From positions 2,753-66,752 of the forward strand of contig JAQVCT010000012.1 of the NCBI GenBank assembly GCA_028689655.1: a stretch of 64,000 nt of DNA. Direction: 5' to 3'. Of this stretch, positions 8,180 to 22,768 are shown one piece after another. The notes beneath the pieces were generated by a model. It had not been told where the DNA came from, made no database searches, and saw nothing but the letters and a program-made list of their open reading frames with translations. The position numbers and the translations under genes are program-made. Positions within the stretch are counted from its first letter, which is position 1, and the number at the start of each line of letters is the position of its first letter. Source of the stretch: Lachnospiraceae bacterium (GTDB taxonomy: Bacteria; Bacillota; Clostridia; Lachnospirales; Lachnospiraceae).

Positions 8180-8196
8180 GGCAATATAGAAATAAG

Positions 8197-8349: not shown

Positions 8350-8350
8350 A

Positions 8351-8478: not shown

Positions 8479-8486
8479 ACAGATCC

Positions 8487-9464: not shown

Positions 9465-9552
9465 AATAATGCAGAATCCTCCGAATGTGATGGAAAGAAA
9501 TGAGATATGAAAATGATATTATTTCAATATTTAAAGATAGAAGAATAGATAG

Positions 9553-10089: not shown

Positions 10090-10243
10090 GCATTGCGTGG
10101 GGTTGGTGCTAACTGACAATGTTTGGATGAGTTCATGCTACCTGGCCCAATTTGAAGGATTTGTGCAAAAGAGAGAAGATTGGCATCAAAAAATGATTTT
10201 CGTGGTAAAAATATCTAAAAATTAAATTTTTATAAAAAAGATA

Positions 10244-10272
10244 TTGCAAAATGTAAAATACGGTTCTATAAT
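10244..10272 (+). promoter_or_regulatory. Sigma-70-type promoter for the liv-like operon
   Basis: TTGCAA (10244-10249), a 17-nt spacer, then TATAAT (10267-10272). It lies about 230 nt upstream of the SBP (substrate-binding protein) start codon. Confidence 0.5.
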
Positions 10273-10437
10273 GAGCAACATCAAAGCAAAAGCAAATCAG
10301 AAGTTTGACAATTTAGAAAGGCACTTGGCATTAGAGTTGCATGAATAACAAGTTAGAAGTGTAACGAATGCATCACAAGTTCCAGAAACAAAAGGGTTTC
10401 AACGTTTATCAATGCAATCTGTAAGGATTCTGTTGAT

Positions 10438-10460
10438 AAGGGCTGAAGCTCTTTTTTTTA
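10438..10460 (+). terminator. Possible leader attenuator/terminator upstream of the liv-like SBP gene
   Basis: aagggc-tgaa-gctctt stem of 6 bp including one G-U pair, followed by T8. An upstream competing hairpin ttatcaa...ttgataa (10405-10439) shares bases with the 5' arm. Confidence 0.3.
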
Positions 10461-10501
10461 TCTTTGTACCAAAAGAAGTTCCAAACAAAAGGAGGAAGAT
10501 T

Positions 10502-11725: not shown

Positions 11726-11733
11726 GGATATAA

Positions 11734-11867
11734 AAAAAGGAGCACATGGCATTAAAATTGCACTAGCGTGCAAGCCATGTACGTAGGCAATGCATTTGAG
11801 AAAAAGGAGCACATGGCATTAGAATTGCACTAGCGTGCAAGCCATGTGCGTAGGCAAAGCATTTGAA
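11734..11867. repeat. Tandem duplication of a 67-bp unit, each copy containing a 9-bp-stem hairpin (gcacatggc ... gccatgtgc)
   Basis: Copies at 11734-11800 and 11801-11867 are nearly identical. Confidence 0.9.
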
Positions 11868-11900
11868 AAGCAATGCTTTACAAATTACAAGTGGCAAAGG

Positions 11901-11934
11901 CGCCAGGACAGATAAAATAGGTCCTGGCGTTTTT
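11901..11934 (+). terminator. Rho-independent terminator/attenuator between the SBP gene and livH
   Basis: cgccaggac - 11-nt loop - gtcctggcg, followed by TTTTT. Confidence 0.8.
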
Positions 11935-12029
11935 GTATTTAGATAAAAGTATCGAATTCGGGAGAGCACAGAAAGCATTCTGTTTTTTCTCGAATTCGAT
12001 AAAATGAAAAAGAAGGGAAGGTGACACAC

Positions 12030-12917
12030 ATGTCATTATTTATACAAAGTATCGTAAACGGACTAAACCAGGGAGCGATATATGCATTGATTGCACTGGG
12101 CTACACCATGGTATATGGAATTATCCGAATGATTAATTTCGCACATGGTGATTTTATCATGGTTGGTGCTTACACATTGTTTTACACAATTCCGCTGATG
12201 ATCAGCGCGGGAATGCCTGCATGGTTAGCGGTCATCATAGCCATCGTAATCTGTAGCGTCATTGGTGTGATGGTAGAAGTAATCGCCTATAGACCTGTAC
12301 GTCGATCAGGTTCTATGTCAGCATTGATTACAGCATTGGCAATGAGTGTATTTCTGGAAAATCTGGCAATGGTTCTCTTTGGAGCAAATCCAAAATCTGT
12401 GCCAGCTATTTTTAATTTACCGGCAGTTGAAATATTAGGTGCGAAGCTGCAGCTCAAATACCTGCTTACATTGGGAATTGGAATTCTCATCATGGTAGGC
12501 CTTCAGTTGTTTGTCAAATTCACCAAGCTTGGAAAAGCAATGAGAGCAGTACCACAGGATAAACAGGCAGCCACACTTGTGGGAATCAAAGTAAATAAGA
12601 TTATTACCACAACCTTTGCCATTGGTTCTGGATTAGCTGCTGTTGCAGCACTAATGTATTGCAGTACCTACCCAAGATGTACCACAGATATGGGAAGCAT
12701 GATGGGACTGAAAGCATTTATTGCAGCAGTACTTGGAGGAATCGGGGTGATTCCAGGTGCTATGATTGGTGGATTAATCGTAGGTCTGGTAGAGATATTT
12801 GTAAAAGTATACATCGCTCCTGGATGGTATGAAGCTATTACATACAGCATATTGATAATCGTGCTTCTCATAAAGCCTTCTGGTATCTTAGGAAAAAATG
12901 TGGGTGAGAAAGTATAA
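12030..12917 (+). CDS. livH: Branched-chain amino-acid ABC transporter permease LivH
   Basis: N-terminal QSIVNGLNQGAIYALIALGYTMVYG is a typical LivH signature. It is a polytopic membrane protein. The ATG at 12030 follows GAAGGGAAGG. Confidence 0.85.
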   Translation: MSLFIQSIVNGLNQGAIYALIALGYTMVYGIIRMINFAHGDFIMVGAYTLFYTIPLMISAGMPAWLAVIIAIVICSVIGVMVEVIAYRPVRRSGSMSALITALAMSVFLENLAMVLFGANPKSVPAIFNLPAVEILGAKLQLKYLLTLGIGILIMVGLQLFVKFTKLGKAMRAVPQDKQAATLVGIKVNKIITTTFAIGSGLAAVAALMYCSTYPRCTTDMGSMMGLKAFIAAVLGGIGVIPGAMIGGLIVGLVEIFVKVYIAPGWYEAITYSILIIVLLIKPSGILGKNVGEKV

Positions 12918-12961
12918 AAATCTAGGATGTACTGATGTTCAAATGTGGGAGGAGCAATCGT

Positions 12962-13987
12962 ATGAAAAAAATAGAAAGTAAAAAAGTAGCATATTTACTG
13001 AATTTCATAGCAATATGCATCTTTTTTGGAATATTGATGATTTTATTTAAAAAAGAAGTATTTGGATCACGAACCAGTTATTTCCAGGGTATCTGCACAA
13101 CAGCATGCTACACCATTATCATGGTGGCATCCTTGAATCTGCTAACAGGATTCATGGGTGAATTCTCACTGGGGCATGCAGGATTTATGTCTGTAGGAGC
13201 ATTTAGCTCCGCCATTCTCACCAACTATTTGGCAGAAAGTGGAATTCCTTCCTTCGTATTATTTTTAATGTGCTTACTGGTAGGCGGTATTGCCGCTGGT
13301 ATTACCGGCATTGCGGTAGGTGTTCCGGCACTTCGACTGAGAGGCGATTATCTGTGTATCGTTACAGTGGCCTTCGCAGAGATTATTCGTGTAGCATTTT
13401 GTAACTTTAAGATCACAGGTGGTGGTAAGACCATGAGTGGCATTACCAGATTATCTAATTTTTACTGGGTTTTCTGGGTAATGGTCATCTGTGTTACCAT
13501 CATGTACATGTATGTGAGATCCAGATATGGCAGAACTGTAATGGCTATTCGTGAGGATTATATTGCAGCCTCTGCAAGTGGCATTAATGTCACCTACTAC
13601 AAGGTGCTGACCTTTACCATATCAGCTTTTTTCGCAGGGATTGCGGGAGCTATCTATGCACATTACATGACAGCAATTATTCCTACGAACTTTAACTTTA
13701 ACTATTCGGCAGAGTTCCTGACAGAGGTTATTATCGGAGGAACGGGTTCTCTTACAGGTTCCGTAATCGGTGCCGCTTTCCTGTCAGCATTACCTGAGCT
13801 TATGAGACAGTTCTCTAATTATAGAATGTTAGCCTACTCCATCGTATTGGTATTGGTAATGATCTTCAAGCCAAGCGGAATCTTCGGTACCTATGAATTC
13901 TCCCTAGTGAGAGTCATTAACCGTCTCTTGGGGAAATCTACAACAGGATCTACAGCATCAAAAAAAACGGTTCAGGAGGTGGAGTAA
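12962..13987 (+). CDS. livM: Branched-chain amino-acid ABC transporter permease LivM
   Basis: GEFSLGHAGFMSVGAF and LRLRGDYLCIVTVAFAEIIR are LivM-type motifs. ATG 12962 follows GGGAGGAG. The ORF is open from 12935. Confidence 0.85.
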   Translation: MKKIESKKVAYLLNFIAICIFFGILMILFKKEVFGSRTSYFQGICTTACYTIIMVASLNLLTGFMGEFSLGHAGFMSVGAFSSAILTNYLAESGIPSFVLFLMCLLVGGIAAGITGIAVGVPALRLRGDYLCIVTVAFAEIIRVAFCNFKITGGGKTMSGITRLSNFYWVFWVMVICVTIMYMYVRSRYGRTVMAIREDYIAASASGINVTYYKVLTFTISAFFAGIAGAIYAHYMTAIIPTNFNFNYSAEFLTEVIIGGTGSLTGSVIGAAFLSALPELMRQFSNYRMLAYSIVLVLVMIFKPSGIFGTYEFSLVRVINRLLGKSTTGSTASKKTVQEVE

Positions 13988-14782
13988 ATGGGCGCAGCAA
14001 CAGAACCAGTATTAAAAGCAGTTCATCTGGGAATCAGCTTTGGTGGATTGAAGGCAGTGAGTGACTTCAGCATCGAAATCGGAGAAAGTGAATTATTCGG
14101 GTTAATCGGTCCCAATGGTGCAGGTAAGACTACCGTATTTAATCTCCTTACAGGTGTATATCAGCCTACAGAAGGCGGCTTCTACCTGAATGGAGAGAAG
14201 ATGAATGGTAAGAAAACCCACCAGGTGGTCGAAGCAGGAATTGCCAGAACATTTCAGAATATCAGACTTTTTAAGAAAATGACTGCCCTGGAAAATGTCA
14301 AGGTAGCGATGAATATGAAGATGAAATACAATCTGGTGGATGCTATTTTCAGAACCCCTACTTATTGGGCAGAAGAAAAAGCAGTGGAAGAGAAGGCACT
14401 GGAATTACTAAAAGTAGTACATCTGGAGGATAAAGCAGACACTGTGGCAGAGAATCTTCCTTATGGTCAGCAGAGAAGACTTGAAATCGCCAGAGCACTG
14501 GCTACCCATATGAAGCTCCTATTATTAGATGAACCGGCAGCAGGTATGAACCCTACGGAGACAGCAGAGTTATTGGATATCATCAGTGTCATCAGAAATC
14601 ATTTTAAGATATCTGTGCTACTCATTGAGCACGATATGAGTCTGGTCATGAAGATCTGTGAGAAGATACAGGTCATTGATTATGGTGAAACCATTGCATT
14701 CGGCACACCAGAAGAGATTGCCAATCATCCAAGAGTAATAGAAGCATATCTTGGAAAGGATGAGGAGGAAAACGAATGTTAG
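13988..14782 (+). CDS. livG: Branched-chain amino-acid ABC transporter ATP-binding protein LivG
   Basis: Walker A GPNGAGKTT, signature YGQQRRLEIARAL, Walker B LLLLDEPAAG. Confidence 0.9.
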   Translation: MGAATEPVLKAVHLGISFGGLKAVSDFSIEIGESELFGLIGPNGAGKTTVFNLLTGVYQPTEGGFYLNGEKMNGKKTHQVVEAGIARTFQNIRLFKKMTALENVKVAMNMKMKYNLVDAIFRTPTYWAEEKAVEEKALELLKVVHLEDKADTVAENLPYGQQRRLEIARALATHMKLLLLDEPAAGMNPTETAELLDIISVIRNHFKISVLLIEHDMSLVMKICEKIQVIDYGETIAFGTPEEIANHPRVIEAYLGKDEEENEC

Positions 14783-15483
14783 AGTTGAAGGACGTAAATG
14801 TATCCTATGGTGCCATTCATGCCATCCATGATGCAAGCCTCACAGTACAGGATGGAGAGATCGTGTCATTGATCGGAGCCAATGGAGCAGGAAAGACAAC
14901 AATATTACATACCATTACAGGATTAAAGGAAGCCACCAGCGGAAGCATTCGATACAATGATCTGGATCTGAGAGCCACAGATGCATCCAAGCTAATCAGC
15001 TATGGAATCGCTCATGTGCCAGAAGGAAGACATATTTTCCCAGGCATGACTGTATTGGAGAACCTGGAGATGGGAGCATATTCCCAGGGCAAGAACACAG
15101 AATTATTGGAGAAAAATAAAGCACTTGTATTTGAACGTTTTCCCAGATTAAAAGAGCGTTACCGCCAGCTGGCAGGAACCCTTTCAGGTGGAGAACAGCA
15201 GATGTTAGCCATGGGCAGAGCTTTAATGGGCAATCCCAAGATTCTCTTACTGGATGAACCATCCATGGGTCTCTCACCACTTCTGGTAAAAGAGATATTC
15301 AGTATCATAAAATATTGCCACGAGATGGGAATCACCATTCTGCTGGTGGAACAGAATGCCAAGATGGCATTGGGCATCGCTGACAGAGCATACGTATTAG
15401 AGACAGGGAATATTACCATCAGTGGAGATGCGAAAGAATTACTGGCAGATGAACGCGTCAAGAAAGCATATTTGGGACAGTAG
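14776..15483 (+). CDS. livF: Branched-chain amino-acid ABC transporter ATP-binding protein LivF
   Basis: Walker A GANGAGKTT, signature LSGGEQQMLAMGRAL, Walker B ILLLDEPS. Confidence 0.9.
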   Translation: MLELKDVNVSYGAIHAIHDASLTVQDGEIVSLIGANGAGKTTILHTITGLKEATSGSIRYNDLDLRATDASKLISYGIAHVPEGRHIFPGMTVLENLEMGAYSQGKNTELLEKNKALVFERFPRLKERYRQLAGTLSGGEQQMLAMGRALMGNPKILLLDEPSMGLSPLLVKEIFSIIKYCHEMGITILLVEQNAKMALGIADRAYVLETGNITISGDAKELLADERVKKAYLGQ

Positions 15484-15526
15484 ATGTGTGAAGTTTGTCC
15501 CGATTCTATTGGAATCGGAGACTCTG

Positions 15527-15568
15527 ACATCAGTCCATTGTCGAAGACAATTTTAGATGGACTGATGT
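15527..15568. other. 12-bp-stem hairpin after livF (acatcagtccat ... atggactgatgt) with the inner palindrome ttgtcgaagacaa
   Basis: The perfect inverted repeat is read directly from the sequence. There is no T-tract, so terminator function is uncertain. Confidence 0.5.
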
Positions 15569-15599
15569 TCACGTAATTGTGTGAAGGAAGGGCAAAAAT

Positions 15600-16223
15600 A
15601 TGGAACGATTTATTATAGCAATCACCAGAACCTGTGGAAGCGGGGCAACCACCGTCAGCAAGATGCTGGCAGATGAATACGGCATTGATCTCTATGACAG
15701 AAAGCTGTTACGTCTGGCATCGGAAGACAGTGGAATTAATGAAGCACTATTTGGTAAGGCAGATGAGAAAGTGAAAAAGACGCTTTTGTATCATGCGTCC
15801 AGAAAAGTATATAACGGGGAATTAATCCCGCCAGAATCAGATGATTTCGCATCGGATAATAACTTATTTAATTATCAGGCAAAGGTATTAAAGGAATTGG
15901 CAAATCAGGAGTCTTATATTGTTATAGGACGTGGAGCAGATTACATCTTAAGGGATAATCCCAACATGATATCTGTTTTTCTTACAGCAGATCTAGAGAC
16001 ACGTATCACCCATGAGATGGAGAGAATGTGCTGTGATCGTAAGGAAGCCACCAAGTACATTCACAAGATGGATAAGTTCAGAAGTGAATACTATACCTAT
16101 CACACAGGTAAGAAGTGGAAAGATACGGAGAATTATGATCTTACACTAAATACAGCAAAGCTTGGCTATGACAAATGTGTAGAACTGATTAAGAACTATG
16201 TAAGCTATAGAACAGAGAAGTGA
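15600..16223 (+). CDS. Cytidylate-kinase-like family protein (P-loop NTPase of unknown function)
   Basis: IIAITRTCGSGATTVSKMLADEYGIDLYDRKLL resembles the clostridial cytidylate kinase-like family. It is distinct from the genuine cmk at 46191. Confidence 0.65.
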   Translation: MERFIIAITRTCGSGATTVSKMLADEYGIDLYDRKLLRLASEDSGINEALFGKADEKVKKTLLYHASRKVYNGELIPPESDDFASDNNLFNYQAKVLKELANQESYIVIGRGADYILRDNPNMISVFLTADLETRITHEMERMCCDRKEATKYIHKMDKFRSEYYTYHTGKKWKDTENYDLTLNTAKLGYDKCVELIKNYVSYRTEK

Positions 16224-16227
16224 AACA

Positions 16228-16259
16228 GCGTTTTTGCGAATGTGGTTCTGAATAGTTAT
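16228..16259. repeat. Partial copy (one end, inverted) of the MITE/REP-like element
   Basis: gcgtttttgcgaatgtggttctgaatagttat matches the reverse complement of 8198-8229 at about 27 of 32 positions. Confidence 0.6.
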
Positions 16260-16310
16260 AGAGGCAATTTAAAAATAAAAAAATAAAGAATCTGAAAAGA
16301 GGAACGAAAC

Positions 16311-17150
16311 ATGAAAAATTTAGGATATTACAATGGACAGTATGATGAAATCGAGAATATGGTGATTCCATTTGATGACAGATCACACTATTACGGAGAT
16401 GGTGTGTATGATGCAACCTGCGCCAGAAACGGTGTTATTTTCAACCTGGATGAGCATATAGATCGTTTCTTCAACAGTGCTGGATTATTGAAAATTGAGA
16501 TTCCACATACGAAGGCAGAAATAAAGGCAATCTTAAATGAGATGATCCAGAAGGTGGATTCTGAGACTAACTTCGTATATTGGCAGGTTACCAGAGCAAC
16601 AGCACCTAGAAAACATGTATTTCCTGATGCAAAAGCAAACTTCTGGATTATGATTCGCCCAGAGAAAATTGGCGATTACAAGAAGCTTTATAAATTGATC
16701 ACCGTGGAAGACACCAGATTCTTACACTGCAATATCAAAACCCTGAATCTGATCCCTAATGTTATGGCAGCACAGCAGACAAAGGAAGCTGGCTGTGATG
16801 AATGTGTATTCCATAGAGGAGAGAGAGTTACAGAATGTGCCCACTGCAACATAAGTATTATCAAGGATGGGAAATTCATTACCCCACCAACAGATCATTA
16901 TATTTTACCAGGTATTGCAAGAGCACATCTTATTAAAATGAGCAAAAAACTCGGTATTCCAGTGGATGAGACACCTTTCACAGTGAAAGAGCTCATGGAA
17001 GCAGATGAAGTAGTAATCAGCTCCTCCAGTAATTTCTGTATGCAGGCTTCTGAAGTCGATGGAGTAGCAGTTGGTGGAAAGGCTCCAGAATTATTGAAAA
17101 AATTACAGGATGCACTTTTGGAAGAATACCTGGAAGCTACCAATAAATAA
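16311..17150 (+). CDS. dat: D-amino-acid (D-alanine) aminotransferase, class IV PLP enzyme
   Basis: The protein is collinear with Bacillus Dat as I recall it: YYGDGVYD (compare FGDGVYE), EHIDRFFNSA, WQVTRA, EDTRFLHCNIKTLNLIPNVMAAQ (compare EDIRWLRCDIKSLNLL). Confidence 0.85.
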   Translation: MKNLGYYNGQYDEIENMVIPFDDRSHYYGDGVYDATCARNGVIFNLDEHIDRFFNSAGLLKIEIPHTKAEIKAILNEMIQKVDSETNFVYWQVTRATAPRKHVFPDAKANFWIMIRPEKIGDYKKLYKLITVEDTRFLHCNIKTLNLIPNVMAAQQTKEAGCDECVFHRGERVTECAHCNISIIKDGKFITPPTDHYILPGIARAHLIKMSKKLGIPVDETPFTVKELMEADEVVISSSSNFCMQASEVDGVAVGGKAPELLKKLQDALLEEYLEATNK

Positions 17151-17214
17151 AAGTCAGTAATAGGAATCGTAATAGGAATAAAAATGAAAATCTAACGGGA
17201 AGACGTGAATTGTT

Positions 17215-18276
17215 ATGACAAAAGGAGAATTAGAGGAATTAAATATTGGTGAGAACCTGGATGCATTGATGAATCTTGATCCTAGAGGCTATGGCGTATG
17301 CAGGATTCTCTATGCAGGAAGTAGGGCTTATACAGGAGAACCTATTGCCATGCATGCAGCGAAGCAACTGGTAAAGACAGTACACCAGGGTGATTTCGTA
17401 TACATTCTCACAGGGTTTGTGTTAAGACCACATAAGGTTCCTGAGATGGATGGTATCGTAAGCTCCATGCTGTTAGCCAGGGCATTGGTACAGGCCTTCG
17501 ATGCGAAGCCTGTTATTATCTGCTCTGAATTAAATAAAGCGGCAGTGATTAAGATGGCACCTGTAGTAGGGCTTCATTGCTATGAGGACCTTGACACGGT
17601 TGCTGAGCTTCCAATATCCATGGGCGTAATATGTTTTACAACAGATCCTGAGACTGCCAAGACGCAGACAGAGGATATTATGAAGAAAAAGCTTCCCACA
17701 GCAGTGATTGCAATCGAAGCACCAGGTGCCAACGAGAAGGGTGAATATCACAATGCTATAGGATTGAATGTGACGGAGCTGGAGACCAAGTCTGACATCC
17801 TATTCCAGGCATTGAAGGACAGAGGAATCCTGAATATCGCCATTGGTGATCTGGGCAACGAGACAGGTATGGGAACCATAGCAGATCACATTCGTAAGTA
17901 TGTGCCTTACACAGCAGCAAATGAATGTAAATGTGATTGCCATGGCGGAATCCTGGCAGCCACCTGCGCAGATCATATCATAACAGCCACGGTGTCTGAC
18001 TGGGGCTGTTATGCCATGATGGCAGCACTTGCTTTTCTGAAAAATGATCTGGATATCTTCCATAAAGGGGAGATGGAGCAGGAAGCAATGCGTGTGGCCA
18101 CCAGAAGTGGAATGATTGATATGACAGGCTCACTGATTCCTGGTATTGATGGATTTAACACGAAGATGAATGTTAACATCGTAGAGCTTATGCGTCAGTG
18201 TGTTGGATATGCCAGAAAATATGAAGGAAAATCAGACCATTGGTTTTCATCAGTATTGGAAAAGGAATTTTTCTAA
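17215..18276 (+). CDS. DUF4392-like protein (glutamate-cyclase-domain family), tentative
   Basis: 353 aa. The N-terminal LDALMNLDPRGYG pattern and the gene's position between dat and pxpB suggest DUF4392. The assignment is from memory only. Confidence 0.45.
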   Translation: MTKGELEELNIGENLDALMNLDPRGYGVCRILYAGSRAYTGEPIAMHAAKQLVKTVHQGDFVYILTGFVLRPHKVPEMDGIVSSMLLARALVQAFDAKPVIICSELNKAAVIKMAPVVGLHCYEDLDTVAELPISMGVICFTTDPETAKTQTEDIMKKKLPTAVIAIEAPGANEKGEYHNAIGLNVTELETKSDILFQALKDRGILNIAIGDLGNETGMGTIADHIRKYVPYTAANECKCDCHGGILAATCADHIITATVSDWGCYAMMAALAFLKNDLDIFHKGEMEQEAMRVATRSGMIDMTGSLIPGIDGFNTKMNVNIVELMRQCVGYARKYEGKSDHWFSSVLEKEFF

Positions 18277-18287
18277 GCTTTGACAAA

Positions 18288-18325
18288 ACTACTCAGAACT
18301 ATGGGAATGGAGGTTCTGAATAGTT
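18288..18325. repeat. Minimal copy of the MITE/REP-like termini (both inverted-repeat ends, 12-nt centre)
   Basis: aactactcagaac - 12 nt - gttctgaatagtt. Confidence 0.55.
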
Positions 18326-18355
18326 ATGATTTGACATTTAAAAAGAGGAATTTAT

Positions 18356-19078
18356 ATGGAAAAGATAAGAATTGTTCCAGAAGGTGATCTGGCAGTACTG
18401 GTAGAATTCGAGAATGAGATCAGCACAGAATGTAATCACAAGGTTTCAACCCTCAACAGGGAAATCATAAATGCAAATATTATAGGCGTTCAGGAGACCG
18501 TGCCAACATTCCGTTCCCTATTGATCTATTATGACGCTTGTGTCATATCCTATGGAAGATTAGTGAGAACGCTAAAAAAGCTCATGAAGCAGAAGGATGT
18601 CAGCGGTTCCCGGCAACAGAGAATAATCAGACTTCCCGTGTGTTATGGAGGAAAATATGGTGTGGATATGGCGGATGTGTGCAGCCATACAGGCTTGACA
18701 GAGGATGAAGTGATTAAGCTGCATACAGAGCCTGATTATCTAATCTATATGCTGGGCTTCTTACCAGGCTTTCCATATCTTGGAGGCTTAGACAAGAGGC
18801 TGATAACTCCCAGACTGGAGAACCCCAGAACTGTGATTCCAGCAGGAGCTGTAGGAATCGGAGGAGAACAGACTGGTGTGTATCCCCTGGCTTCGCCAGG
18901 AGGCTGGAGACTAATCGGTCAGACCCCTGTCTGTCTCTATGATGCGGAAAGAGAGACTCCTATACTCTATAAAGCAGGAGATATGATTCACTTCTATGCC
19001 ATAGGAGAAGAGGAATACCTGGGAATAGAACAACAGGTAAGAGAAGGGAGCTTCCCATATGAAAGCTTGTATGTGTAG
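18356..19078 (+). CDS. pxpB: 5-oxoprolinase subunit PxpB (KipI / allophanate hydrolase subunit 1 family)
   Basis: 240 aa. Motifs IVPEGDLAVLVEF and MLGFLPGFPYLGGLD are typical of the family. It is adjacent to pxpC. Confidence 0.8.
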   Translation: MEKIRIVPEGDLAVLVEFENEISTECNHKVSTLNREIINANIIGVQETVPTFRSLLIYYDACVISYGRLVRTLKKLMKQKDVSGSRQQRIIRLPVCYGGKYGVDMADVCSHTGLTEDEVIKLHTEPDYLIYMLGFLPGFPYLGGLDKRLITPRLENPRTVIPAGAVGIGGEQTGVYPLASPGGWRLIGQTPVCLYDAERETPILYKAGDMIHFYAIGEEEYLGIEQQVREGSFPYESLYV

Positions 19079-19082
19079 TAAT

Positions 19083-20051
19083 ATGGAAAACAAAATCAAA
19101 ATAAGATCAGCTGGTGCTTTGACCACCATACAGGATTATGGAAGACTGGGATATCAAAGTCAGGGATTTTCTCCCTCGGGAGTGGTAGATCAGGAAGCCA
19201 TGGAAATCGGAAATATATTAGTAGGAAATCCTTTGGAGGAAGCGGTACTGGAATGTACGTTAATAGGACCTGGAATCGAATTCATGACAGATACCAGAAT
19301 AGCCCTAACCGGGGCGGACATGCAGGCTAAGATCGGAGACCGTCAGATTCCTACATGCCAGTGTATTCCTGTAGCAGCGGGAGATGTATTGACAATGGGC
19401 GTAGCAGCAAAAGGCTGTAGAGCCTACATTGCTATTGCTGGAGGATTTCAGGTTCCTCTCGTCCTGGGAAGCAAGTCTTTGAATCAAAAATGTAAGATTG
19501 GTGGAGGGTATGGAAGACCTTTACAGGCTGGAGATATGCTGTCAACAGGTGAGAACACAGCCAGCACAATCAGGAATCCAGAAGCACTTCAACAGGAAGT
19601 ACAGTCATCTAAGAGCAAAATGGAAGAAAAGCTTCATACGGTACATGTAATCATGGGACCTCAGGAAACGTTATTTACAAAAGAGGGAAGAAAGACTTTT
19701 CTTCATAATACCTATGAGATTACCAATGATTCCAACCGTATGGCATGTAAGCTACAGGGTAAACCCATAGAGAGCGTACATGGATCAGATATTATATCAG
19801 ATGGAATTGCAATGGGTGCCATTCAGGTAGCCAGTAATGGGCAACCGATTGTGATGCTTTCAGATCGTCAGACCACAGGCGGGTATGGGAAAATGGCTAC
19901 AGTTATCTCTACTGATATTCCCATTTTCGCCCAGTGCAGACCAGGAGATCAGGTAGTGTTCCAGGCAGTTTCACTGCGATGGGCACAAAAGCAATACAGG
20001 AAAAAAAGAAAAAGAATACAAGCAGAAGGAAGGAATACCCATGGACTATAG
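19083..20051 (+). CDS. pxpC: 5-oxoprolinase subunit PxpC (KipA / allophanate hydrolase subunit 2 family)
   Basis: LTTIQDYGRLGYQSQGFSPSGVVD and SDRQTTGGY are typical motifs. The start may be ATG 19083 or the upstream in-frame ATG 19059. Confidence 0.8.
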   Translation: MENKIKIRSAGALTTIQDYGRLGYQSQGFSPSGVVDQEAMEIGNILVGNPLEEAVLECTLIGPGIEFMTDTRIALTGADMQAKIGDRQIPTCQCIPVAAGDVLTMGVAAKGCRAYIAIAGGFQVPLVLGSKSLNQKCKIGGGYGRPLQAGDMLSTGENTASTIRNPEALQQEVQSSKSKMEEKLHTVHVIMGPQETLFTKEGRKTFLHNTYEITNDSNRMACKLQGKPIESVHGSDIISDGIAMGAIQVASNGQPIVMLSDRQTTGGYGKMATVISTDIPIFAQCRPGDQVVFQAVSLRWAQKQYRKKRKRIQAEGRNTHGL

Positions 20052-20823
20052 TAAGGAGTTACCATGTGAAGTACGAAAACTAATCAGGGAAGGGAATATT
20101 ACAGGACAGACATCTGGGATGTGTGCAGGATATGCCCAGGCTAATCTGGTGGTATTGCCCAAAGAGTTATCCTATGATTTTTTACTTTTTGCCCAAAGAA
20201 ATCCAAAATCCTGCCCCATATTAGAAGTGTTAGATGAGGGATCCAGGTATACAAAATTTATGGCAAAGGACGGAAATATCGCCACAGACATTCCCCGCTA
20301 CCGCATCTATGAATACGGTAAAATGGTTGGAGAGTATACAGATGTCACACAATTCTGGAGAGAGGATTTGGTTGGCTTCCTCATAGGCTGCAGCTTTTCT
20401 TTTGAATCCGAATTGCTGGAGGCTGGTATTCCTGTGAGACAAATAGAGGAGCGCTGCAATGTACCAATGTACAATACGAATATTCCTTGTGCTGAAGCAG
20501 GAATATTCAAGGGAAACATGGTGGTAAGCATGCGACCGATTCCTTATGCAGATGTGCCAAGAGCGGTAGAGGTTACTGCTGCAATGCCTAGAGTACACGG
20601 AGCGCCTATTCACATAGGGAACCCAGCAGCCATCGGAATTAATGACCTGCAGCATCCCGACTATGGTGACATGGTTACCATAAGAGAAGGGGAAGCGCCA
20701 GTGTTCTGGCCATGCGGTGTGACACCACAGGCAGTGCTCATGGCTTCCAAGCCTGCCTTTGCCATTACCCATGCTCCAGGACATATGTTTATCACAGACG
20801 TGAAAAATGTTCGACTGAAGTAA
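20041..20823 (+). CDS. DUF1445 / UPF0317 putative hydro-lyase (YcsI-like; D-glutamate-cyclase N-domain family)
   Basis: 260 aa. Motifs TSGMCAGYAQANLVVLP, NPKSCPILEV and HGAPIHIGNP match the UPF0317 pattern as I recall it. Confidence 0.7.
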   Translation: MDYSKELPCEVRKLIREGNITGQTSGMCAGYAQANLVVLPKELSYDFLLFAQRNPKSCPILEVLDEGSRYTKFMAKDGNIATDIPRYRIYEYGKMVGEYTDVTQFWREDLVGFLIGCSFSFESELLEAGIPVRQIEERCNVPMYNTNIPCAEAGIFKGNMVVSMRPIPYADVPRAVEVTAAMPRVHGAPIHIGNPAAIGINDLQHPDYGDMVTIREGEAPVFWPCGVTPQAVLMASKPAFAITHAPGHMFITDVKNVRLK

Positions 20824-20893
20824 TAACGAACAGGGCAGATTTCCAATGGTTGTATAATTGTAAGAGCATGGAAATGTGAAACAATTCGTAGGT

Positions 20894-20941
20894 ATCAGAA
20901 ATAAAATCAGAAATAAAATCAGAAATAAAATCAGAAAGAAG
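20894..20941. repeat. 12-bp tandem repeat atcagaaataaa, 3 copies plus a degenerate fourth, in the pxpA leader
   Basis: Exact copies at 20894, 20906 and 20918. Confidence 0.9.
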
Positions 20942-20950
20942 AGAAAACTT

Positions 20951-21700
20951 ATGTATACAATAGATATGAACTGTGACCTGGGCGAAAGCTTTGGTCGTTT
21001 TACAATAGGAAGAGACGAGGAAGTAATTCCTTATATTACATCAGCCAATGTGGCATGTGGATATCATGCATCTGATCCCATGGTCATGGGTAAAACAGTC
21101 CAGATTGCCAAGAAAAATGGAGTTCATGTGGGAGCACATATTGGATTTCCTGACCTTATGGGCTTTGGACGAAGAAATATGGTAATATCCCCAGAGGAAG
21201 CCAAGACCTATACCATGTATCAGATGGGTGCCCTCATGGGATTCCTGGCAGCAGAGCATATGACACTTTCCCATGTAAAGCCACATGGGGCCTTCTACAA
21301 CATGGCGGCCAAGGATTATCAGATGTCTCTGGCAATCTGTGAAGGAATCAAAGCAATTGATTCCAAAGTGGCACTTATGGGATTAGCAGGCAGTGAGATG
21401 ATAAGAGCTGCAAAAGCGGTGGGCATTCCTGTAATCCAGGAAGTGTTCGCAGATCGTGCCTATGAAGAGGATGGAACACTGGTAGCCCGTAGTAAGCCAG
21501 GAGCCATGATAGAAGATGAGAATGAAGCGATTCAAAGAGTCATCCGCATGGTAAAGGATAGAAAAGTAAATGCAATTACTGGCAAAGATGTGGATATTCA
21601 GCCAGATTCCGTGTGTGTCCATGGGGATGGTAAAGCAGCCTTACTATTTGTGAAAAAAATAAGAGAAGCACTAGAAAGAGAAGGAATTCTGATAAAATAG
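20951..21700 (+). CDS. pxpA: 5-oxoprolinase subunit PxpA (LamB/YcsF family)
   Basis: YTIDMNCDLGESFG, ANVACGYHASDP and KPHGAFYN are LamB/YcsF signatures. The longer ORF from 20876 would translate the 12-bp repeat and is unlikely. Confidence 0.85.
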   Translation: MYTIDMNCDLGESFGRFTIGRDEEVIPYITSANVACGYHASDPMVMGKTVQIAKKNGVHVGAHIGFPDLMGFGRRNMVISPEEAKTYTMYQMGALMGFLAAEHMTLSHVKPHGAFYNMAAKDYQMSLAICEGIKAIDSKVALMGLAGSEMIRAAKAVGIPVIQEVFADRAYEEDGTLVARSKPGAMIEDENEAIQRVIRMVKDRKVNAITGKDVDIQPDSVCVHGDGKAALLFVKKIREALEREGILIK

Positions 21701-21718
21701 AGTTCCTTCTCTTTTTTT
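21675..21718 (+). terminator. Rho-independent terminator overlapping the pxpA 3' end
   Basis: aaagagaaggaa - 16-nt loop - ttccttctcttt, followed by TTTT. Confidence 0.75.
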
Positions 21719-21787
21719 AGAATGGAAAAAATATGTCAGAAAAGCTTACATAACTAATTACGGCGAAACTGTAACGTTCATTATTCC

Positions 21788-22282
21788 ATGCCCGTACGAT
21801 GCATAGTATATGATGCGTTGGAATACATGAAACAGGTGAAAGAAATTATCCGCAGGAATAAGCAGGATAAAAGGCAGAAAACCTCAGAAGAATTCTTGTC
21901 CGGGATGTACCGCACAGACATGCTGGTACCTGTGATTACCTTTGTATTTTATCATGGAAATGAGCCGTATGACGGTTGTACAGATCTTCATGGTATGTTA
22001 GACTTAAGTGGAATCAGGGATCAATATCGGAACCTGATTCCTAACTATAAGATGAATCTCATCACCCTGGAAGATATTGATGAGATGCAGATGAAAACAG
22101 GCTTGCGTGAAGTAATCGGAGCCCTTAAGAGAAGTAAAGACAAAGAAGCATTCTTACACTATGTGCAGGAAAATCAGAATCGTTTCCAACAGCTGGACGA
22201 AGAGACCTGCCATACTATAGGAGTCGTGTTGAAACAGGATAACCTGCAAGAAATTCAAAGTGCCACAAGACGATATTATTGA
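21788..22282 (+). mobile_element. 5'-truncated Rpn-family / PD-(D/E)XK nuclease-type transposase-like gene (C-terminal portion only)
   Basis: It begins at MPVRCIVYDALEYMKQV, a block that lies mid-protein in this family. VITFVFYHG also matches. The N-terminal nuclease half is absent. Confidence 0.55.
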
Positions 22283-22426
22283 ACAACTTTTAGAGGAATA
22301 TAAACTTCCGATAGAGAATGCCCGGAGTATTGTAATCAAATACTGGGACTTAGCGTAATCTTCTAAGAGGAGAGCATAGGAATATAGACTACCAGGAAGA
22401 AGCTTCTTACGCCCATAGAGATCCGT

Positions 22427-22534
22427 GGAAGGGGCGACCCAAAGCCGATCCATAAAATCAAAGTATGAGCCGAGAGGAGGAAGGGACGAAAGAGGGCATC
22501 CGATAAGAGCCGCAAGGACATGGTCCCGTTTCAG
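22427..22534 (-). pseudogene. Short transposase-N-terminus-like fragment (very tentative)
   Basis: The minus-strand translation LKRDHVLAALIGCPLSSLPPLGSYFDFMDRLW resembles the N-terminal region of some Firmicute DDE transposases. No catalytic domain follows. Confidence 0.25.
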
Positions 22535-22768
22535 GCGTGCGACCCATGTAGTAAGGGAAGGCGGAGTAAGTCCCATAGAGAGCAACAAAAAGAAAAGAAC
22601 AAATGCGCCGCACAATTCAGAAACAATGTCAATAGTTTTCTGAAAACAGTTCAAAAATGTTTCTCGCCTTATGGAGGGAACGAAAAAAAGATAGCAAAAA
22701 AAGAGCGTAAACTCGGGCTTTAAAGAGTTTCCGAGACCGCTCTAAGATAAAGATGGAGGAAACTGTAA

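What the first reader, a model, noticed from the sequence alone, without database searches (positions are those of the whole stretch)
16311..21700. Split D-glutamate-cyclase domains interleaved with PxpABC and preceded by Dat: a candidate D-glutamate / 5-oxo-D-proline module
Seen in sequence: the co-directional, tightly packed genes are dat (class IV D-amino-acid aminotransferase), a DUF4392-like protein, pxpB, pxpC, a DUF1445 protein and pxpA. The pxpC/DUF1445 junction overlaps by 11 nt. A liv-type amino-acid ABC transporter lies immediately upstream and a strong terminator downstream. Established knowledge: PxpABC is the prokaryotic ATP-dependent 5-oxoprolinase. Mammalian D-glutamate cyclase is a fusion of DUF1445 and DUF4392. 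B. subtilis ycsI (DUF1445) lies in the ycsF-kipIA (pxp) operon. Inference: both halves of the cyclase are present here as separate genes inside a pxp operon that also carries a D-amino-acid transaminase. That suggests a pathway linking D-glutamate, 5-oxo-D-proline and 2-oxoglutarate. It may serve to salvage peptidoglycan-derived D-Glu, with the Liv-like transporter as importer. As far as I know, the role of bacterial DUF1445/DUF4392 proteins and the stereospecificity of the associated Pxp enzymes have not been resolved experimentally.
Basis: partly seen in the sequence, partly recalled or inferred. Interest (0 to 1): 0.6.

Follow-up and report, generated by a model that had tools for sequence, protein, structure and literature searches.

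The report
Mobile D-glutamate / pyroglutamate salvage gene island
A 13-kb inserted gene block combines an amino-acid importer, a D-amino-acid transaminase, the bacterial 5-oxoproline-opening enzyme and both halves of the animal D-glutamate cyclase, pointing to a bacterial route for D-glutamate and its ring form that nobody has yet tested.

Summary
Pfam and NCBIfam confirm dat (class IV), DUF4392 (PF14336), pxpB, pxpC, DUF1445 (PF07286) and pxpA. The 11-nt pxpC/DUF1445 overlap and the strong terminator are real.

Corrections:
- pxpA most likely starts at 20951.
- A conserved PF13189 "cytidylate-kinase-like" gene lies between the transporter and dat.
- The whole 12-gene unit is a 13.3-kb insertion that splits a cbiB-cobD junction which is intact in 6 of 6 relatives.

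Comparative evidence supports a functional unit:
- The 12-gene order recurs in about 33 Clostridia loci.
- In 401 genomes of the phylum, DUF1445 almost never occurs without PxpA (67 of 68). DUF4392 goes with DUF1445 (38 of 52) and lies next to it in 25 genomes.
- Natural fusions exist: PxpC-DUF1445, DUF4392-DUF1445, and DUF4392-MurD-like-DUF1445.
- Dat appears only where all three families sit together.
- The DUF4392 metal ligands and the Dat active-site residues are intact.
- MurI and Alr are encoded elsewhere, so the island is not needed to make D-Glu.

Most likely this is a salvage module that funnels D-glutamate and 5-oxoproline (D and/or L) to 2-oxoglutarate or glutamate. Reaction direction and stereochemistry are untested. 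I rate it a new variant of known kinds, of moderate to good interest.

The parts
9465..22768 (.). 13.3-kb inserted island between cbiB (8487-9464) and the cobD-type aminotransferase (22769-23830).
   Evidence: In 6 of 6 relatives (same genus, family and order), cbiB is followed within about 50-180 nt by cobD; cobQ and/or cbiC follow where the fetched stretch shows them (5 of 6). The left junction is spanned by contigs in two independent samples, and depth is even at 41-45x across it.
9598..10089 (+). Remnant of a glycyl-radical enzyme (PFL-like) gene; internal fragment only.
   Evidence: PF02901 positions 503-645 of 647. It matches residues 447-592 of a 733-aa GRE ORF upstream of the same module in L053, at 71% identity. 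A variant with a 293-bp deletion occurs in sample X2.
10244..10272 (+). Sigma-70-like promoter candidate upstream of the SBP gene (TTGCAA-17-TATAAT).
   Evidence: 10 of 12 matches. This is a consensus match only.
10412..11725 (+). LIV-family (HAAT) substrate-binding lipoprotein.
   Evidence: Peripla_BP_6, 5e-54. The closest solved structures are branched-chain and general amino-acid binders. It keeps the LivK Ser79 and Thr102 equivalents and has Asp for Glu226; Tyr202 is Phe.
11734..11867 (+). Two tandem 67-nt hairpin-containing repeats in the SBP-livH spacer, each with a sigma-54-like TGGCAT-N5-TTGCA motif. A terminator-like hairpin follows.
   Evidence: Not conserved in 32 related loci.
12021..15483 (+). 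livH-like permease (12021-12917), livM-like permease (12935-13987), livG-like ATPase (13988-14782) and livF-like ATPase (14776-15483).
   Evidence: BPD_transp_2 twice, ABC_tran twice, BCA_ABC_TP_C. 68-86% identical in related loci.
15600..16223 (+). PF13189 cytidylate-kinase-like protein of unknown function. Its P-loop lacks the Lys (GSGATT).
   Evidence: Cytidylate_kin2, 6e-54. PDB 3HDT 'putative kinase', 7e-42. Conserved between livF and dat in about 35 loci. It overlaps dat by 4 nt in L012. Eight copies in the genome counting this one, i.e. seven paralogs elsewhere.
16311..17150 (+). Class IV, D-amino-acid-transaminase-like enzyme (Dat).
   Evidence: PF01063, 1.5e-48. Best NCBIfam hit is TIGR01121, below its cut-off. 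The equivalents of Y31, R98, H100, K145, E177 and L201 of Bacillus DAAT are conserved.
17215..18276 (+). DUF4392 / GLUCM-like_C protein, homologous to the C-terminal half of vertebrate D-glutamate cyclase, with an intact binuclear metal site.
   Evidence: PF14336, 1.1e-87. TON_0340 homologue. Ligands E77, D79, E168, D212, E216 and D312 are all present and at least 95% conserved in 93 sequences (PMC5132392).
18356..19078 (+). PxpB (5-oxoprolinase subunit; KipI-type).
   Evidence: CT_C_D, 6.8e-75; TIGR00370 above its cut-off.
19059..20051 (+). PxpC (5-oxoprolinase subunit; KipA-type). An alternative start is possible at 19083.
   Evidence: CT_A_B, 2.6e-90; TIGR00724, 298 bits against a cut-off of 230.
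20041..20823 (+). DUF1445 / UPF0317 'putative hydro-lyase', homologous to the N-terminal half of vertebrate D-glutamate cyclase. It overlaps pxpC by 11 nt.
   Evidence: PF07286, 8.4e-70; NF003969, 414 bits. PDB 3DB9 and 2PIF at about 1e-90. Model pLDDT 92. Invariant or nearly invariant (at least 95% of 94 sequences): C58, C117, C225, H186, H244, D46, D83, D207, R12, R165.
20894..20940 (+). Three copies of a 12-nt tandem repeat (ATCAGAAATAAA) in the DUF1445-pxpA spacer.
   Evidence: One copy fewer in samples X2 and X3.
20951..21700 (+). PxpA (LamB/YcsF-type 5-oxoprolinase subunit). The likely true start is ATG 20951.
   Evidence: LamB_YcsF, 8.5e-102; NF003814, 363.5 bits. The models begin at residue 26-29 of the GTG ORF.
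21671..21718 (+). Intrinsic terminator: an 18-bp stem followed by a T-run.
   Evidence: -24.3 kcal/mol, z -5.24, 0 of 200 shuffles fold as well.
21788..22282 (+). Truncated Transposase_31 (YhgA/Rpn-like) remnant at the right edge of the island.
   Evidence: PF04754 positions 105-194 of 203 only. A 319-residue open frame (stop to stop) holding a paralog on C8 is 63% identical over the middle part.

Best explanation
The 13.3-kb block is an acquired or translocated catabolic (salvage) island. I think it feeds D-glutamate and 5-oxoproline (pyroglutamate, D and/or L form) into central metabolism.

Proposed steps:
1. A LIV-family ABC importer takes up the substrate, probably an alpha-amino acid such as D-Glu and possibly also pyroglutamate. 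This step is inferred.
2. DUF1445 and DUF4392 together act as the split bacterial counterpart of D-glutamate cyclase. They interconvert D-Glu and 5-oxo-D-proline at a Mn2+/Mg2+ site. This rests on homology, on fusions and on co-occurrence.
3. PxpABC opens 5-oxoproline rings at the cost of ATP. DUF1445 works physically with PxpB/PxpC. The family assignment is shown; the partnership is inferred from 67 of 68 genome co-occurrence and from PxpC-DUF1445 fusions.
4. Dat transaminates D-Glu with pyruvate to 2-oxoglutarate plus D-Ala. The chromosomal Alr returns the D-Ala to L-Ala. The conserved residues are shown; the reaction is inferred.

The transaminase supplies the thermodynamic pull that lets 5-oxo-D-proline drain through D-Glu. 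PxpABC deals with the L form, and perhaps with the D form too.

The PF13189 kinase-like protein is a conserved part of the unit, but I cannot assign it a role.
For: **Family assignments**
- All six enzyme genes and the transporter genes are assigned by Pfam and NCBIfam.

**Conserved gene order**
- The order SBP-livHMGF-CKlike-dat-DUF4392-pxpB-pxpC-DUF1445-pxpA recurs in about 33 of 56 related loci from Lachnospiraceae and Oscillospiraceae.
- The five-gene core occurs in nearly all of them.

**Phylum sample of 401 genomes**
- DUF1445 occurs with PxpA in 67 of 68 genomes (odds ratio 293, p 1e-38).
- DUF4392 occurs with DUF1445 in 38 of 52 genomes (odds ratio 29, p 4e-23).
- The two genes are adjacent in 25 of those 38 genomes.

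**Natural fusions**
- PxpC-DUF1445 in three diverged forms: P0001, P0002 (52% identity) and P0005 (39% identity).
- DUF4392-DUF1445 proteins of about 545-551 aa. The domain order is the reverse of the vertebrate enzyme, so this is an independent fusion.
- DUF4392-MurD_N-Mur_ligase_M-DUF1445 (P0073, P0074). MurD is the D-Glu-adding ligase.

**Dat association**
- Dat lies only in clusters that hold DUF4392, DUF1445 and pxp together: 3 of 6, against 0 of 39 DUF1445-pxp clusters without DUF4392 (Fisher p 0.0014).

**Active sites**
- The six TON_0340 metal ligands are intact (PMC5132392).
- The DAAT carboxylate trap and the catalytic Lys are intact.

**Host genome context**
- MurI and Alr are encoded elsewhere, so the island is not needed for D-Glu synthesis.
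- The island carries the genome's only pxpABC, DUF1445, DUF4392 and dat.

**Other support**
- LIV-type ABC genes also sit in or beside pxp-DUF1445 clusters of other families: L145, L157, L178, L184.
- RNA-derived contigs of a relative cross the CK-like/dat, dat/DUF4392 and pxpB/pxpC junctions.
- Mouse DGLUCY (DUF1445 plus DUF4392) converts D-Glu to 5-oxo-D-proline (PMC5339696).
Against: - No biochemical datum exists for any bacterial DUF1445 or DUF4392 protein in the searchable literature.
- TON_0340, the only DUF4392 protein studied in vitro, showed Mn-dependent phosphatase activity, not cyclase activity (PMC5132392).
- A cyclase combined with an oxoprolinase acting on the same enantiomer would waste ATP.
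- DUF1445 accompanies Pxp in 27 genomes that have neither DUF4392 nor an adjacent Dat. At least part of its job is therefore independent of D-Glu transamination.
- 14 genomes have DUF4392 without DUF1445, in unrelated contexts. The family is not monofunctional.
- Dat scores below NCBI's equivalog cut-off.
- Pxp-type enzymes can act on other lactams. A P. putida paralog hydrolyses butyrolactam (10.1101/2021.12.09.472016).
- The SBP ligand is unknown.
- In a relative's RNA data the transporter genes are barely covered while the enzyme genes are.
Confidence: 0.5

Rival explanations
1. This is ordinary 5-oxo-L-proline detoxification or utilisation. PxpABC does the known job. DUF1445 is an accessory subunit of Pxp, as ycsI may be in B. 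subtilis. DUF4392 and Dat are unrelated passengers, for example Dat making D-Ala or D-Glu for the cell wall.
For: - PxpA, PxpB and PxpC are typical family members.
- DUF1445 accompanies Pxp in 27 genomes without DUF4392 or Dat.
- Growth on 5-oxo-L-proline through pxp genes plus a transporter is known in C. glutamicum and C. difficile (PMC13274462; 10.1101/2024.05.01.592088).
Against: - Dat is found only in clusters that contain DUF4392 (3 of 6 against 0 of 39), and its order is conserved in 39 of 56 close loci.
- DUF4392 and DUF1445 are fused or adjacent far more often than chance allows.
- MurI and Alr already cover cell-wall D-amino acids.
Confidence: 0.17
2. The module acts on a different lactam / D-amino-acid pair. 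Candidates are a C6 analogue such as 6-oxopipecolate with D-2-aminoadipate, or another cyclic amide. Pxp would serve as a lactamase of altered specificity, and the DUF pair as the matching cyclase or hydrolase.
For: - Pxp paralogs differ in lactam specificity; P. putida PP_2920-2 acts on butyrolactam.
- PxpC falls below the PxpC equivalog cut-off (249.6 against 500) and Dat below its own cut-off.
- The SBP belongs to the broad LIV family.
Against: - It is the only pxpABC in the genome.
- DUF1445 is 50-55% identical to family members that sit in classical pxp operons.
- The MurD-like fusions point to D-Glu specifically.
- The mammalian homologue acts on D-Glu (PMC5339696).
Confidence: 0.13
3. 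The module performs ATP-driven stereoinversion: D-Glu is cyclised, the lactam is epimerised, and PxpABC opens the L-lactam irreversibly to give L-Glu. DUF1445 would be the epimerase.
For: - It explains why a cyclase is tied to an ATP-dependent ring-opener without a futile cycle.
- It fits the near-obligate co-occurrence of DUF1445 with Pxp and the PxpC-DUF1445 fusions.
- DUF1445 has invariant Cys117 and Cys225. These could act as acid/base pairs; that is speculation.
Against: - The DUF1445 fold shows no similarity to any known racemase. It matches only its own family plus a weak NrpR-like hit.
- The mouse enzyme was reported to give 5-oxo-D-proline and showed no racemase activity on glutamate (PMC5339696).
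- Dat would be superfluous in this scheme.
Confidence: 0.1

Closest known systems
Prokaryotic ATP-dependent 5-oxoprolinase PxpABC and its operons (E. coli ybgJKL; B. subtilis pxpA(ycsF)-ycsG-ycsI-kipI-kipA; C. glutamicum pxpTABC; C. difficile kipOTIA)
   Same: - All three subunits are present with typical family scores.
- A DUF1445 (ycsI-type) gene sits inside the operon, as in B. subtilis.
- A dedicated importer lies next to it, as in C. glutamicum and C. difficile.
   Different: - The operon additionally carries DUF4392, a D-amino-acid transaminase and a PF13189 protein.
- The importer is a five-gene LIV-type ABC system, not a secondary carrier.
- The whole unit is an island inserted into a cob operon.
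Vertebrate mitochondrial D-glutamate cyclase (DGLUCY / C14orf159 / 9030617O03Rik; EC 4.2.1.48)
   Same: Both constituent domains (PF07286 and PF14336) are present. The acidic metal-binding residues of the DUF4392 part are conserved.
   Different: - Here the two domains are separate proteins, with pxpB and pxpC encoded between them.
- They are linked to an ATP-dependent ring-opener and a transaminase, neither of which is part of the animal system.
- The activity is untested.
TON_0340 of Thermococcus onnurineus (DUF4392; PDB 4DWZ, 4FC5, 5GKX)
   Same: It is homologous over the core (E about 1e-15), with all six metal-binding Asp/Glu residues conserved.
   Different: - TON_0340 is a stand-alone archaeal protein described as a Mn2+-dependent phosphatase with no known substrate.
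- The window's protein is about 85 residues longer and sits in a pxp/dat operon.
Bacillus D-amino-acid transaminase (Dat; PDB 1DAA, 3DAA)
   Same: It has the class IV fold. The catalytic Lys145, Glu177, the carboxylate trap Tyr31/Arg98/His100, and Leu201 are all conserved.
   Different: - It scores below the TIGR01121 equivalog cut-off.
- The Ser180/Ser181 equivalents are His and Cys.
- Its context is catabolic or salvage rather than cell-wall synthesis.

Membership tests
PxpABC 5-oxoprolinase | All three subunit families are present and adjacent: LamB/YcsF, CT_C_D (KipI) and CT_A_B (KipA). | tested here: met
   One search gives E-values of 8.5e-102, 6.8e-75 and 2.6e-90. The genes lie at 18356-21700.
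PxpABC 5-oxoprolinase | Scores above the curated NCBIfam cut-offs. | tested here: met
   
- PxpB: TIGR00370, 225.6 against 145.55.
- PxpA: NF003814, 363.5 against 226.
- PxpC: TIGR00724, 298.3 against 230.2.
- The narrower PxpC equivalog NF045499 is not reached (249.6 against 500).
PxpABC 5-oxoprolinase | ATP-dependent hydrolysis of 5-oxo-L-proline to L-Glu. | not testable with these tools
   This needs an enzyme assay.
D-glutamate cyclase (DGLUCY, EC 4.2.1.48) | Contains the PF07286 (DUF1445) domain. | tested here: met
   8.4e-70, profile positions 1-143 of 143.
D-glutamate cyclase (DGLUCY, EC 4.2.1.48) | Contains the PF14336 (DUF4392) domain. | tested here: met
   1.1e-87, profile positions 1-291 of 291.
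D-glutamate cyclase (DGLUCY, EC 4.2.1.48) | Both domains lie in one polypeptide (DUF1445 N-terminal, DUF4392 C-terminal). | tested here: not met
   They are separate genes at 17215-18276 and 20041-20823, with pxpB and pxpC between them. Microbial fusions do exist, but in the reverse domain order.
D-glutamate cyclase (DGLUCY, EC 4.2.1.48) | Divalent-metal site of the DUF4392 domain (six invariant Asp/Glu residues of TON_0340). | tested here: met
   E77, D79, E168, D212, E216 and D312 are present (PMC5132392).
D-glutamate cyclase (DGLUCY, EC 4.2.1.48) | Converts D-Glu to 5-oxo-D-proline. | not testable with these tools
   This needs an assay with chiral analysis.
D-amino-acid transaminase (class IV, Dat) | Class IV aminotransferase fold. 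| tested here: met
   PF01063, 1.5e-48.
D-amino-acid transaminase (class IV, Dat) | Reaches the equivalog cut-off of TIGR01121. | tested here: not met
   238.6 bits against a cut-off of 277.45. It is nevertheless the best-scoring family, ahead of the BCAT and PabC models.
D-amino-acid transaminase (class IV, Dat) | Catalytic Lys145, Glu177, carboxylate trap Tyr31/Arg98/His100, and Leu201 (Bacillus YM-1 numbering). | tested here: met
   All are conserved in the alignment to 3DAA and 1DAA. Which residues define the family is taken from my own knowledge of the Bacillus enzyme.
LIV/HAAT-family ABC amino-acid importer | One SBP (Peripla_BP_6), two BPD_transp_2 permeases and two ABC ATPases, one of them with the BCA_ABC_TP_C tail. 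| tested here: met
LIV/HAAT-family ABC amino-acid importer | The SBP keeps the residues that bind the alpha-amino and alpha-carboxylate groups (LivK Ser79, Thr102, Tyr202, Glu226). | tested here: inconclusive
   Ser and Thr are kept, Glu226 is Asp, and Tyr202 is Phe. The residue list comes from memory of the LivJ/LivK structures.
Genomic island / inserted cassette | It interrupts a gene adjacency that is conserved in relatives, and is bounded by gene remnants. | tested here: met
   - cbiB-cobD is adjacent in 6 of 6 relatives.
- A GRE fragment and a Transposase_31 fragment lie at the edges.
- The junction is confirmed in a second sample.
- No flanking direct repeats were found.

The most novel reading that the evidence does not exclude
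DUF1445, helped by the metal enzyme DUF4392 where that is present, is a previously unrecognised fourth component of the bacterial oxoprolinase. It would extend the enzyme to the D enantiomer in one of two ways. Either it makes an ATP-dependent 5-oxo-D-prolinase whose product D-Glu is drained by a dedicated transaminase. Or it epimerises the lactam so that D-Glu is converted irreversibly to L-Glu without glutamate racemase. Either reading would define a new bacterial D-glutamate pathway. It would also assign functions to two widespread families of unknown function.
Probability: 0.2. Interest if true: 0.8.

Novelty: new variant of a known kind. Interest (0 to 1): 0.55.

Why it matters
- D-glutamate is one of the most abundant D-amino acids in nature, as a component of peptidoglycan and poly-gamma-glutamate. 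Few bacterial routes for breaking it down are known.
- No bacterial enzyme acting on 5-oxo-D-proline turned up in the literature searches made here.
- DUF1445 occurs in 68 and DUF4392 in 52 of the 401 sampled genomes of this phylum. Neither has an experimentally shown bacterial function.
- The co-occurrence figures, the fusions and the conserved 12-gene cassette make the question directly testable in cultured Lacrimispora, [Clostridium] aerotolerans and Mobilisporobacter strains.
- A result would also clarify what each domain of the human enzyme DGLUCY does.
- The insertion into a cobalamin operon shows that the whole capability moves as one block.

Tried and rejected
- **Rfam scan of 1-30000:** no riboswitch or other RNA family.
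- **RNA data for the window's own organism:** none. The source is a landfill-metagenome MAG and only DNA runs hold it.
- **Sigma-54 control:**
  - Three TGGCAT-N5-TTGCA motifs lie in the island, out of only 19 in the genome.
  - The genome has rpoN and three enhancer-binding proteins.
  - The motif is absent from the same spacers in 32 related loci.
  - Two of the three copies lie in a local 67-nt tandem repeat that is followed by a terminator-like hairpin.
  - I do not claim sigma-54 regulation.
- **Racemase-like fold for DUF1445:** rejected. Foldseek finds only 2PIF and 3DB9, plus a weak NrpR-like hit.
- **Chimeric assembly as the cause of the insertion:** rejected. Contigs span the junction in two samples and depth is even.
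- **Clear-cut HGT from a distant donor:** not shown.
  - The module tree puts the window in one 100/100 clade with a same-genus copy (L013) and with the Mobilisporobacter/Herbinix-type copies.
  - Its nearest neighbours are the latter (94/91).
  - L013 is a long branch.
  - I therefore say 'acquired or translocated'.
- **Upstream genes in the 14 close loci without dat:** the analysis was spoiled by spurious antisense ORFs in high-GC contigs.
- **Niehaus et al. 2017:** could not be read. Statements about it rest on my own knowledge and on citing papers.
- **CK-like paralog next to a second LIV system on contig C6:** it lies 2.4 kb away with unrelated genes between, so no transporter link can be claimed.

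Full report
**1. What is there**

| Coordinates | Gene | Key evidence |
|---|---|---|
| 16311-17150 | dat | Aminotran_4; best NCBIfam family is D-amino-acid transaminase, below its equivalog cut-off |
| 17215-18276 | DUF4392 | Full-length PF14336, 1.1e-87 |
| 18356-19078 | pxpB | Above curated cut-off |
| 19059-20051 | pxpC | Above curated cut-off |
| 20041-20823 | DUF1445 | PF07286; NF003969 'putative hydro-lyase' |
| to 21700 | pxpA | Above curated cut-off |

- The 11-nt pxpC/DUF1445 overlap is real.
- The terminator is real: an 18-bp stem, -24.3 kcal/mol.
- A LIV-type ABC system lies upstream at 10412-15483.

Three corrections apply.
- pxpA most likely starts at ATG 20951. The family models begin at residue 26 of the GTG ORF, and the stretch before it is a 12-nt tandem repeat whose copy number differs between samples.
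- A PF13189 'cytidylate-kinase-like' gene (15600-16223) lies between the transporter and dat. It is itself conserved in that position.
- Dat is below NCBI's equivalog cut-off. It does keep Tyr31, Arg98, His100, Lys145, Glu177 and Leu201 of the Bacillus enzyme.

**2. The block is an insertion**

- Left of the SBP gene lie cbiB (8487-9464) and a 163-aa internal fragment of a glycyl-radical enzyme.
- Right of pxpA lie a truncated Transposase_31 ORF and then a cobD-type aminotransferase, cobQ and cbiC.
- In six of six relatives (three of the same genus, two of the same family, one of the same order), cbiB is followed directly by cobD; cobQ and/or cbiC follow where the fetched stretch shows them (5 of 6). 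So 9465-22768 is a 13.3-kb insertion.
- It is not an assembly chimera.
  - In the source sample a 2.8-kb contig spans cbiB into the SBP gene, at the same depth (41-45x) as the island and cobD.
  - A second, independent sample carries the same junction, with a 293-bp deletion inside the GRE remnant.
- The GRE fragment matches residues 447-592 of a full-length GRE that precedes the same module in a Subdoligranulum MAG, L053. A piece of a donor-type neighbourhood seems to have travelled with the cassette.
- Four of eight same-genus genomes carry a more distant copy of the enzyme genes (DUF4392 62-66% identical). Two of these copies (G401, G404) lie on contigs other than the cob contig, and the two with a fetched locus (G401, G402 = L013, L011) lack the transporter there. 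One further genome has a pseudogene (L011, L013).
- In a three-protein tree the window sits in a 100/100 clade with that same-genus copy and with the Mobilisporobacter/Herbinix-type cassettes. It is nearest to the latter (94/91). I therefore call the island 'acquired or translocated' rather than proven long-range transfer.
- The island holds the genome's only pxpABC, DUF1445, DUF4392 and dat.
- MurI and Alr are encoded elsewhere. The island is therefore not needed for cell-wall D-Glu or D-Ala synthesis.

**3. Conservation**

A scan of species-representative genomes with the DUF4392 protein gave 56 loci, all from Clostridia: Lachnospiraceae, Oscillospiraceae and Acutalibacteraceae.
- About 33 of them have the full order SBP-livH-livM-livG-livF-CKlike-dat-DUF4392-pxpB-pxpC-DUF1445-pxpA.
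- 39 have dat directly before DUF4392.
- Nearly all have the core DUF4392-pxpB-pxpC-DUF1445-pxpA.

**4. Phylum-wide statistics**

I searched the same evenly drawn sample of 401 genomes for three families.

| Family | Genomes with it |
|---|---|
| PF14336 (DUF4392) | 52 |
| PF07286 (DUF1445) | 68 |
| PF03746 (PxpA) | 129 |

- DUF1445 co-occurs with PxpA in 67 of 68 genomes (odds ratio 293, p 1e-38).
- DUF4392 co-occurs with DUF1445 in 38 of 52 genomes (odds ratio 29, p 4e-23).

The arrangements fall into classes:

| Arrangement | Genomes |
|---|---|
| DUF1445 beside pxpA, no DUF4392 in the genome (B. subtilis type) | 27 |
| DUF1445-DUF4392 adjacent pair, pxpA elsewhere | 18 |
| DUF1445 beside pxpA, DUF4392 elsewhere | 13 |
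| All three together (including this genome) | 6 |
| DUF4392 without DUF1445, in unrelated neighbourhoods | 14 |
| DUF1445 and PxpA both present, not adjacent, no DUF4392 | 3 |
| DUF1445-DUF4392 adjacent pair, no PxpA found | 1 |

The unrelated neighbourhoods include a gamma-glutamyltransferase-like gene and an FGGY-kinase-like gene beside a SelA/DgaE-like gene; I read those names off the sequences and did not scan them.

These counts are not corrected for phylogeny. The effect sizes are large and the arrangements are rearranged between families, so shared ancestry alone is an unlikely cause.

Dat homologues were found only in the 'all together' class: 3 of 6, against 0 of 39 DUF1445-pxp clusters without DUF4392 and none beside the stand-alone pairs (Fisher p 0.0014).

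LIV-type ABC genes recur in or beside pxp-DUF1445 clusters of other families in different orders: L145, L157, L178 and L184.

**5. Fusions**

A search started from a PxpC-DUF1445 fusion ORF seen in locus L124. It returned the following.
- PxpC-DUF1445 proteins in three diverged versions, at 99%, 52% and 39% identity. Sequencing error is therefore an unlikely cause.
- Many DUF4392(N)-DUF1445(C) proteins of about 545-551 aa. This is the reverse of the vertebrate domain order and so an independent fusion.
- Two DUF4392-MurD_N-Mur_ligase_M-DUF1445 proteins. MurD is the ligase that adds D-Glu to the peptidoglycan precursor, which gives a link to D-Glu that does not depend on the mouse enzyme.
- PxpB+DUF1445 architectures also appear, but they look truncated and I give them little weight.

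**6. Active sites and folds**

- DUF4392 is homologous to TON_0340. All six metal-binding Asp/Glu residues described for that structure (PMC5132392) are present: E77, D79, E168, D212, E216 and D312. They are at least 95% conserved in the 93 DUF4392 sequences gathered here.
- DUF1445 models confidently (pLDDT 92) and matches only the two structural-genomics entries of its own family. There is also a weak similarity to an NrpR-like protein (TM 0.40-0.46). It shows no racemase-like fold.
- DUF1445 has many invariant or nearly invariant polar residues, including Cys58, Cys117, Cys225, His186 and His244.
- The SBP keeps the LivK Ser79 and Thr102 equivalents and an Asp at the Glu226 position. That fits a ligand with a free alpha-amino group. 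Tyr202 is Phe. This is weak evidence and the residue list comes from memory.

**7. Transcription**

- No RNA run holds the window's own sequence.
- For the homologous locus of [Clostridium] aerotolerans (L012), contigs from a true RNA-seq library of a roughly 93-95% identical organism cross the CK-like/dat, dat/DUF4392 and pxpB/pxpC junctions. They cover none of the transporter genes.
- A second probable RNA run gives continuous contigs from the 3' end of livF to beyond pxpA at depth 39-112, against 0-16 over the transporter.
- This fits a polycistronic CK-like-dat-...-pxpA unit and a separately controlled importer. However, contigs are not reads, and one metatranscriptome gave a 24-kb contig that probably reflects DNA.
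- In the window itself the gaps between genes are short. No terminator-like site stands between livH and pxpA apart from low-scoring consensus matches inside genes.
- The SBP-livH spacer holds a tandem repeat and a terminator-like hairpin.

**8. Literature**

- Mouse 9030617O03Rik (DGLUCY), made of DUF1445 plus DUF4392, converts D-Glu to 5-oxo-D-proline and showed no racemase or oxidase activity (PMC5339696).
- TON_0340 was described as a Mn-dependent phosphatase, and its authors noted the fusion with DUF1445 in animals (PMC5132392).
- A survey of human proteins with split gut-bacterial homologues lists DGLUCY with six split cases, without comment (PMC11580864).
- Work on pxp operons in C. glutamicum, C. 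difficile and B. subtilis deals only with 5-oxo-L-proline or with Mn transport by YcsG (PMC13274462; 10.1101/2024.05.01.592088; PMC10448178).
- A P. putida pxpABC paralog hydrolyses butyrolactam (10.1101/2021.12.09.472016).
- Full-text searches found no bacterial study of DUF1445, DUF4392 or 5-oxo-D-proline metabolism.
- Public annotations of the closest homologues read 'DUF4392 domain-containing protein' or 'hypothetical protein'.

**9. Interpretation**

What is shown:
- the gene content;
- the insertion;
- the co-conservation;
- the fusions;
- the intact catalytic residues.

What is inferred is the chemistry. My best reading (about 0.5) is a salvage island with these steps.
1. A LIV-type importer brings in D-Glu and/or pyroglutamate.
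2. DUF1445 and DUF4392 interconvert D-Glu and 5-oxo-D-proline.
3. PxpABC, working with DUF1445, opens 5-oxoproline rings with ATP.
4. Dat pulls D-Glu to 2-oxoglutarate, with Alr recycling the D-Ala.

The near-obligate presence of Pxp wherever DUF1445 occurs argues that the bacterial proteins are not a stand-alone cyclase making an end product, as in mammals.

The restriction of Dat to clusters that also hold DUF4392 ties the DUF4392 branch to D-Glu.

The rivals are set out in the report sections with their weights:
- plain L-oxoproline handling with passenger genes;
- another lactam / amino-acid pair;
- an ATP-driven D-to-L inversion.

The PF13189 protein is a conserved member of the unit whose role I cannot explain.

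**10. Verdict**

- The parts are known families. Their combination, with its strong comparative support and its mobility as a 12-gene cassette, is a new variant. It makes the function of two widespread unknown families testable.
- Earlier notes of this scan report similar modules in other phyla. I treat them as leads that agree with this report, not as independent proof.

Noticed in passing
window 10326-10341, 11747-11762, 11814-11829: Three sigma-54-like TGGCAT-N5-TTGCA motifs lie on the coding strand in the spacers before the SBP gene and livH. The whole 3.4-Mb genome has only 19, and it encodes rpoN and three enhancer-binding proteins. The motif is absent from the same spacers in 32 related loci, so these may be copies of a local repeat rather than promoters.
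   Followed up: partly
window 11734-11867 and 11890-12001: A 67-nt tandem duplication (94% identical) carries nested hairpins. It is followed by a terminator-like hairpin with a T-run and then a 24-nt-arm hairpin just before the livH ribosome-binding site. Related loci have a much shorter SBP-livH spacer.
   Followed up: partly
window 15600-16223: The PF13189 cytidylate-kinase-like protein has a P-loop without Lys (GSGATT). The genome holds eight copies of this family, counting this one. This copy is conserved between livF and dat in about 35 related loci and overlaps dat by 4 nt in [Clostridium] aerotolerans. Its function is unknown.
   Followed up: partly
window 20894-20940: A 12-nt tandem repeat (three copies) lies upstream of pxpA. 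Samples X2 and X3 carry one copy fewer.
   Followed up: partly
window 9501-9793: A second sample carries a 293-bp deletion inside the GRE remnant, which fits a decaying pseudogene.
   Followed up: yes
window 8000-8550: Contig depth here is about 50 times that of the flanks (2117 against 41), with many loose ends at 8197 and 8350. This fits a highly repeated MITE-like element between cobC and cbiB.
   Followed up: no
P0073, P0074 (proteins): Proteins of 864 and 913 aa have a MurD-like N-terminal domain and a Mur-ligase middle domain inserted between DUF4392 and DUF1445. Their origin is unknown (metagenomic).
   Followed up: partly
L102, L111, L116; L096, L114, L119; L105, L109, L110, L112, L113: DUF4392 paralogs without an adjacent DUF1445 sit in three kinds of neighbourhood (the neighbour names are read from the sequences by eye and were not scanned):
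- next to a gamma-glutamyltransferase-like gene plus an M14-like peptidase and a transporter;
- next to an FGGY-type kinase plus a SelA/DgaE-like enzyme and peptide ABC genes;
- next to TAXI-TRAP transporter, malic-enzyme-like and GntR genes.

The family clearly has further roles.
   Followed up: no
L145, L157, L178, L184: In other families of the phylum, LIV-type ABC transporter genes lie inside or directly beside pxp-DUF1445 clusters. In L157 they sit between DUF1445 and pxpB. The importer link therefore recurs independently.
   Followed up: partly
G407:C148:26424-26717: A same-genus genome holds a DUF4392 fragment with two in-frame TAA stops, indicating module decay in that lineage.
   Followed up: no
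DUF1445 model m239130a11778: The only structural similarity outside its own family is a weak match to the NrpR-like protein MJ0159 (3NEK; TM 0.40-0.46). From my own knowledge, NrpR proteins sense 2-oxoglutarate.
   Followed up: no
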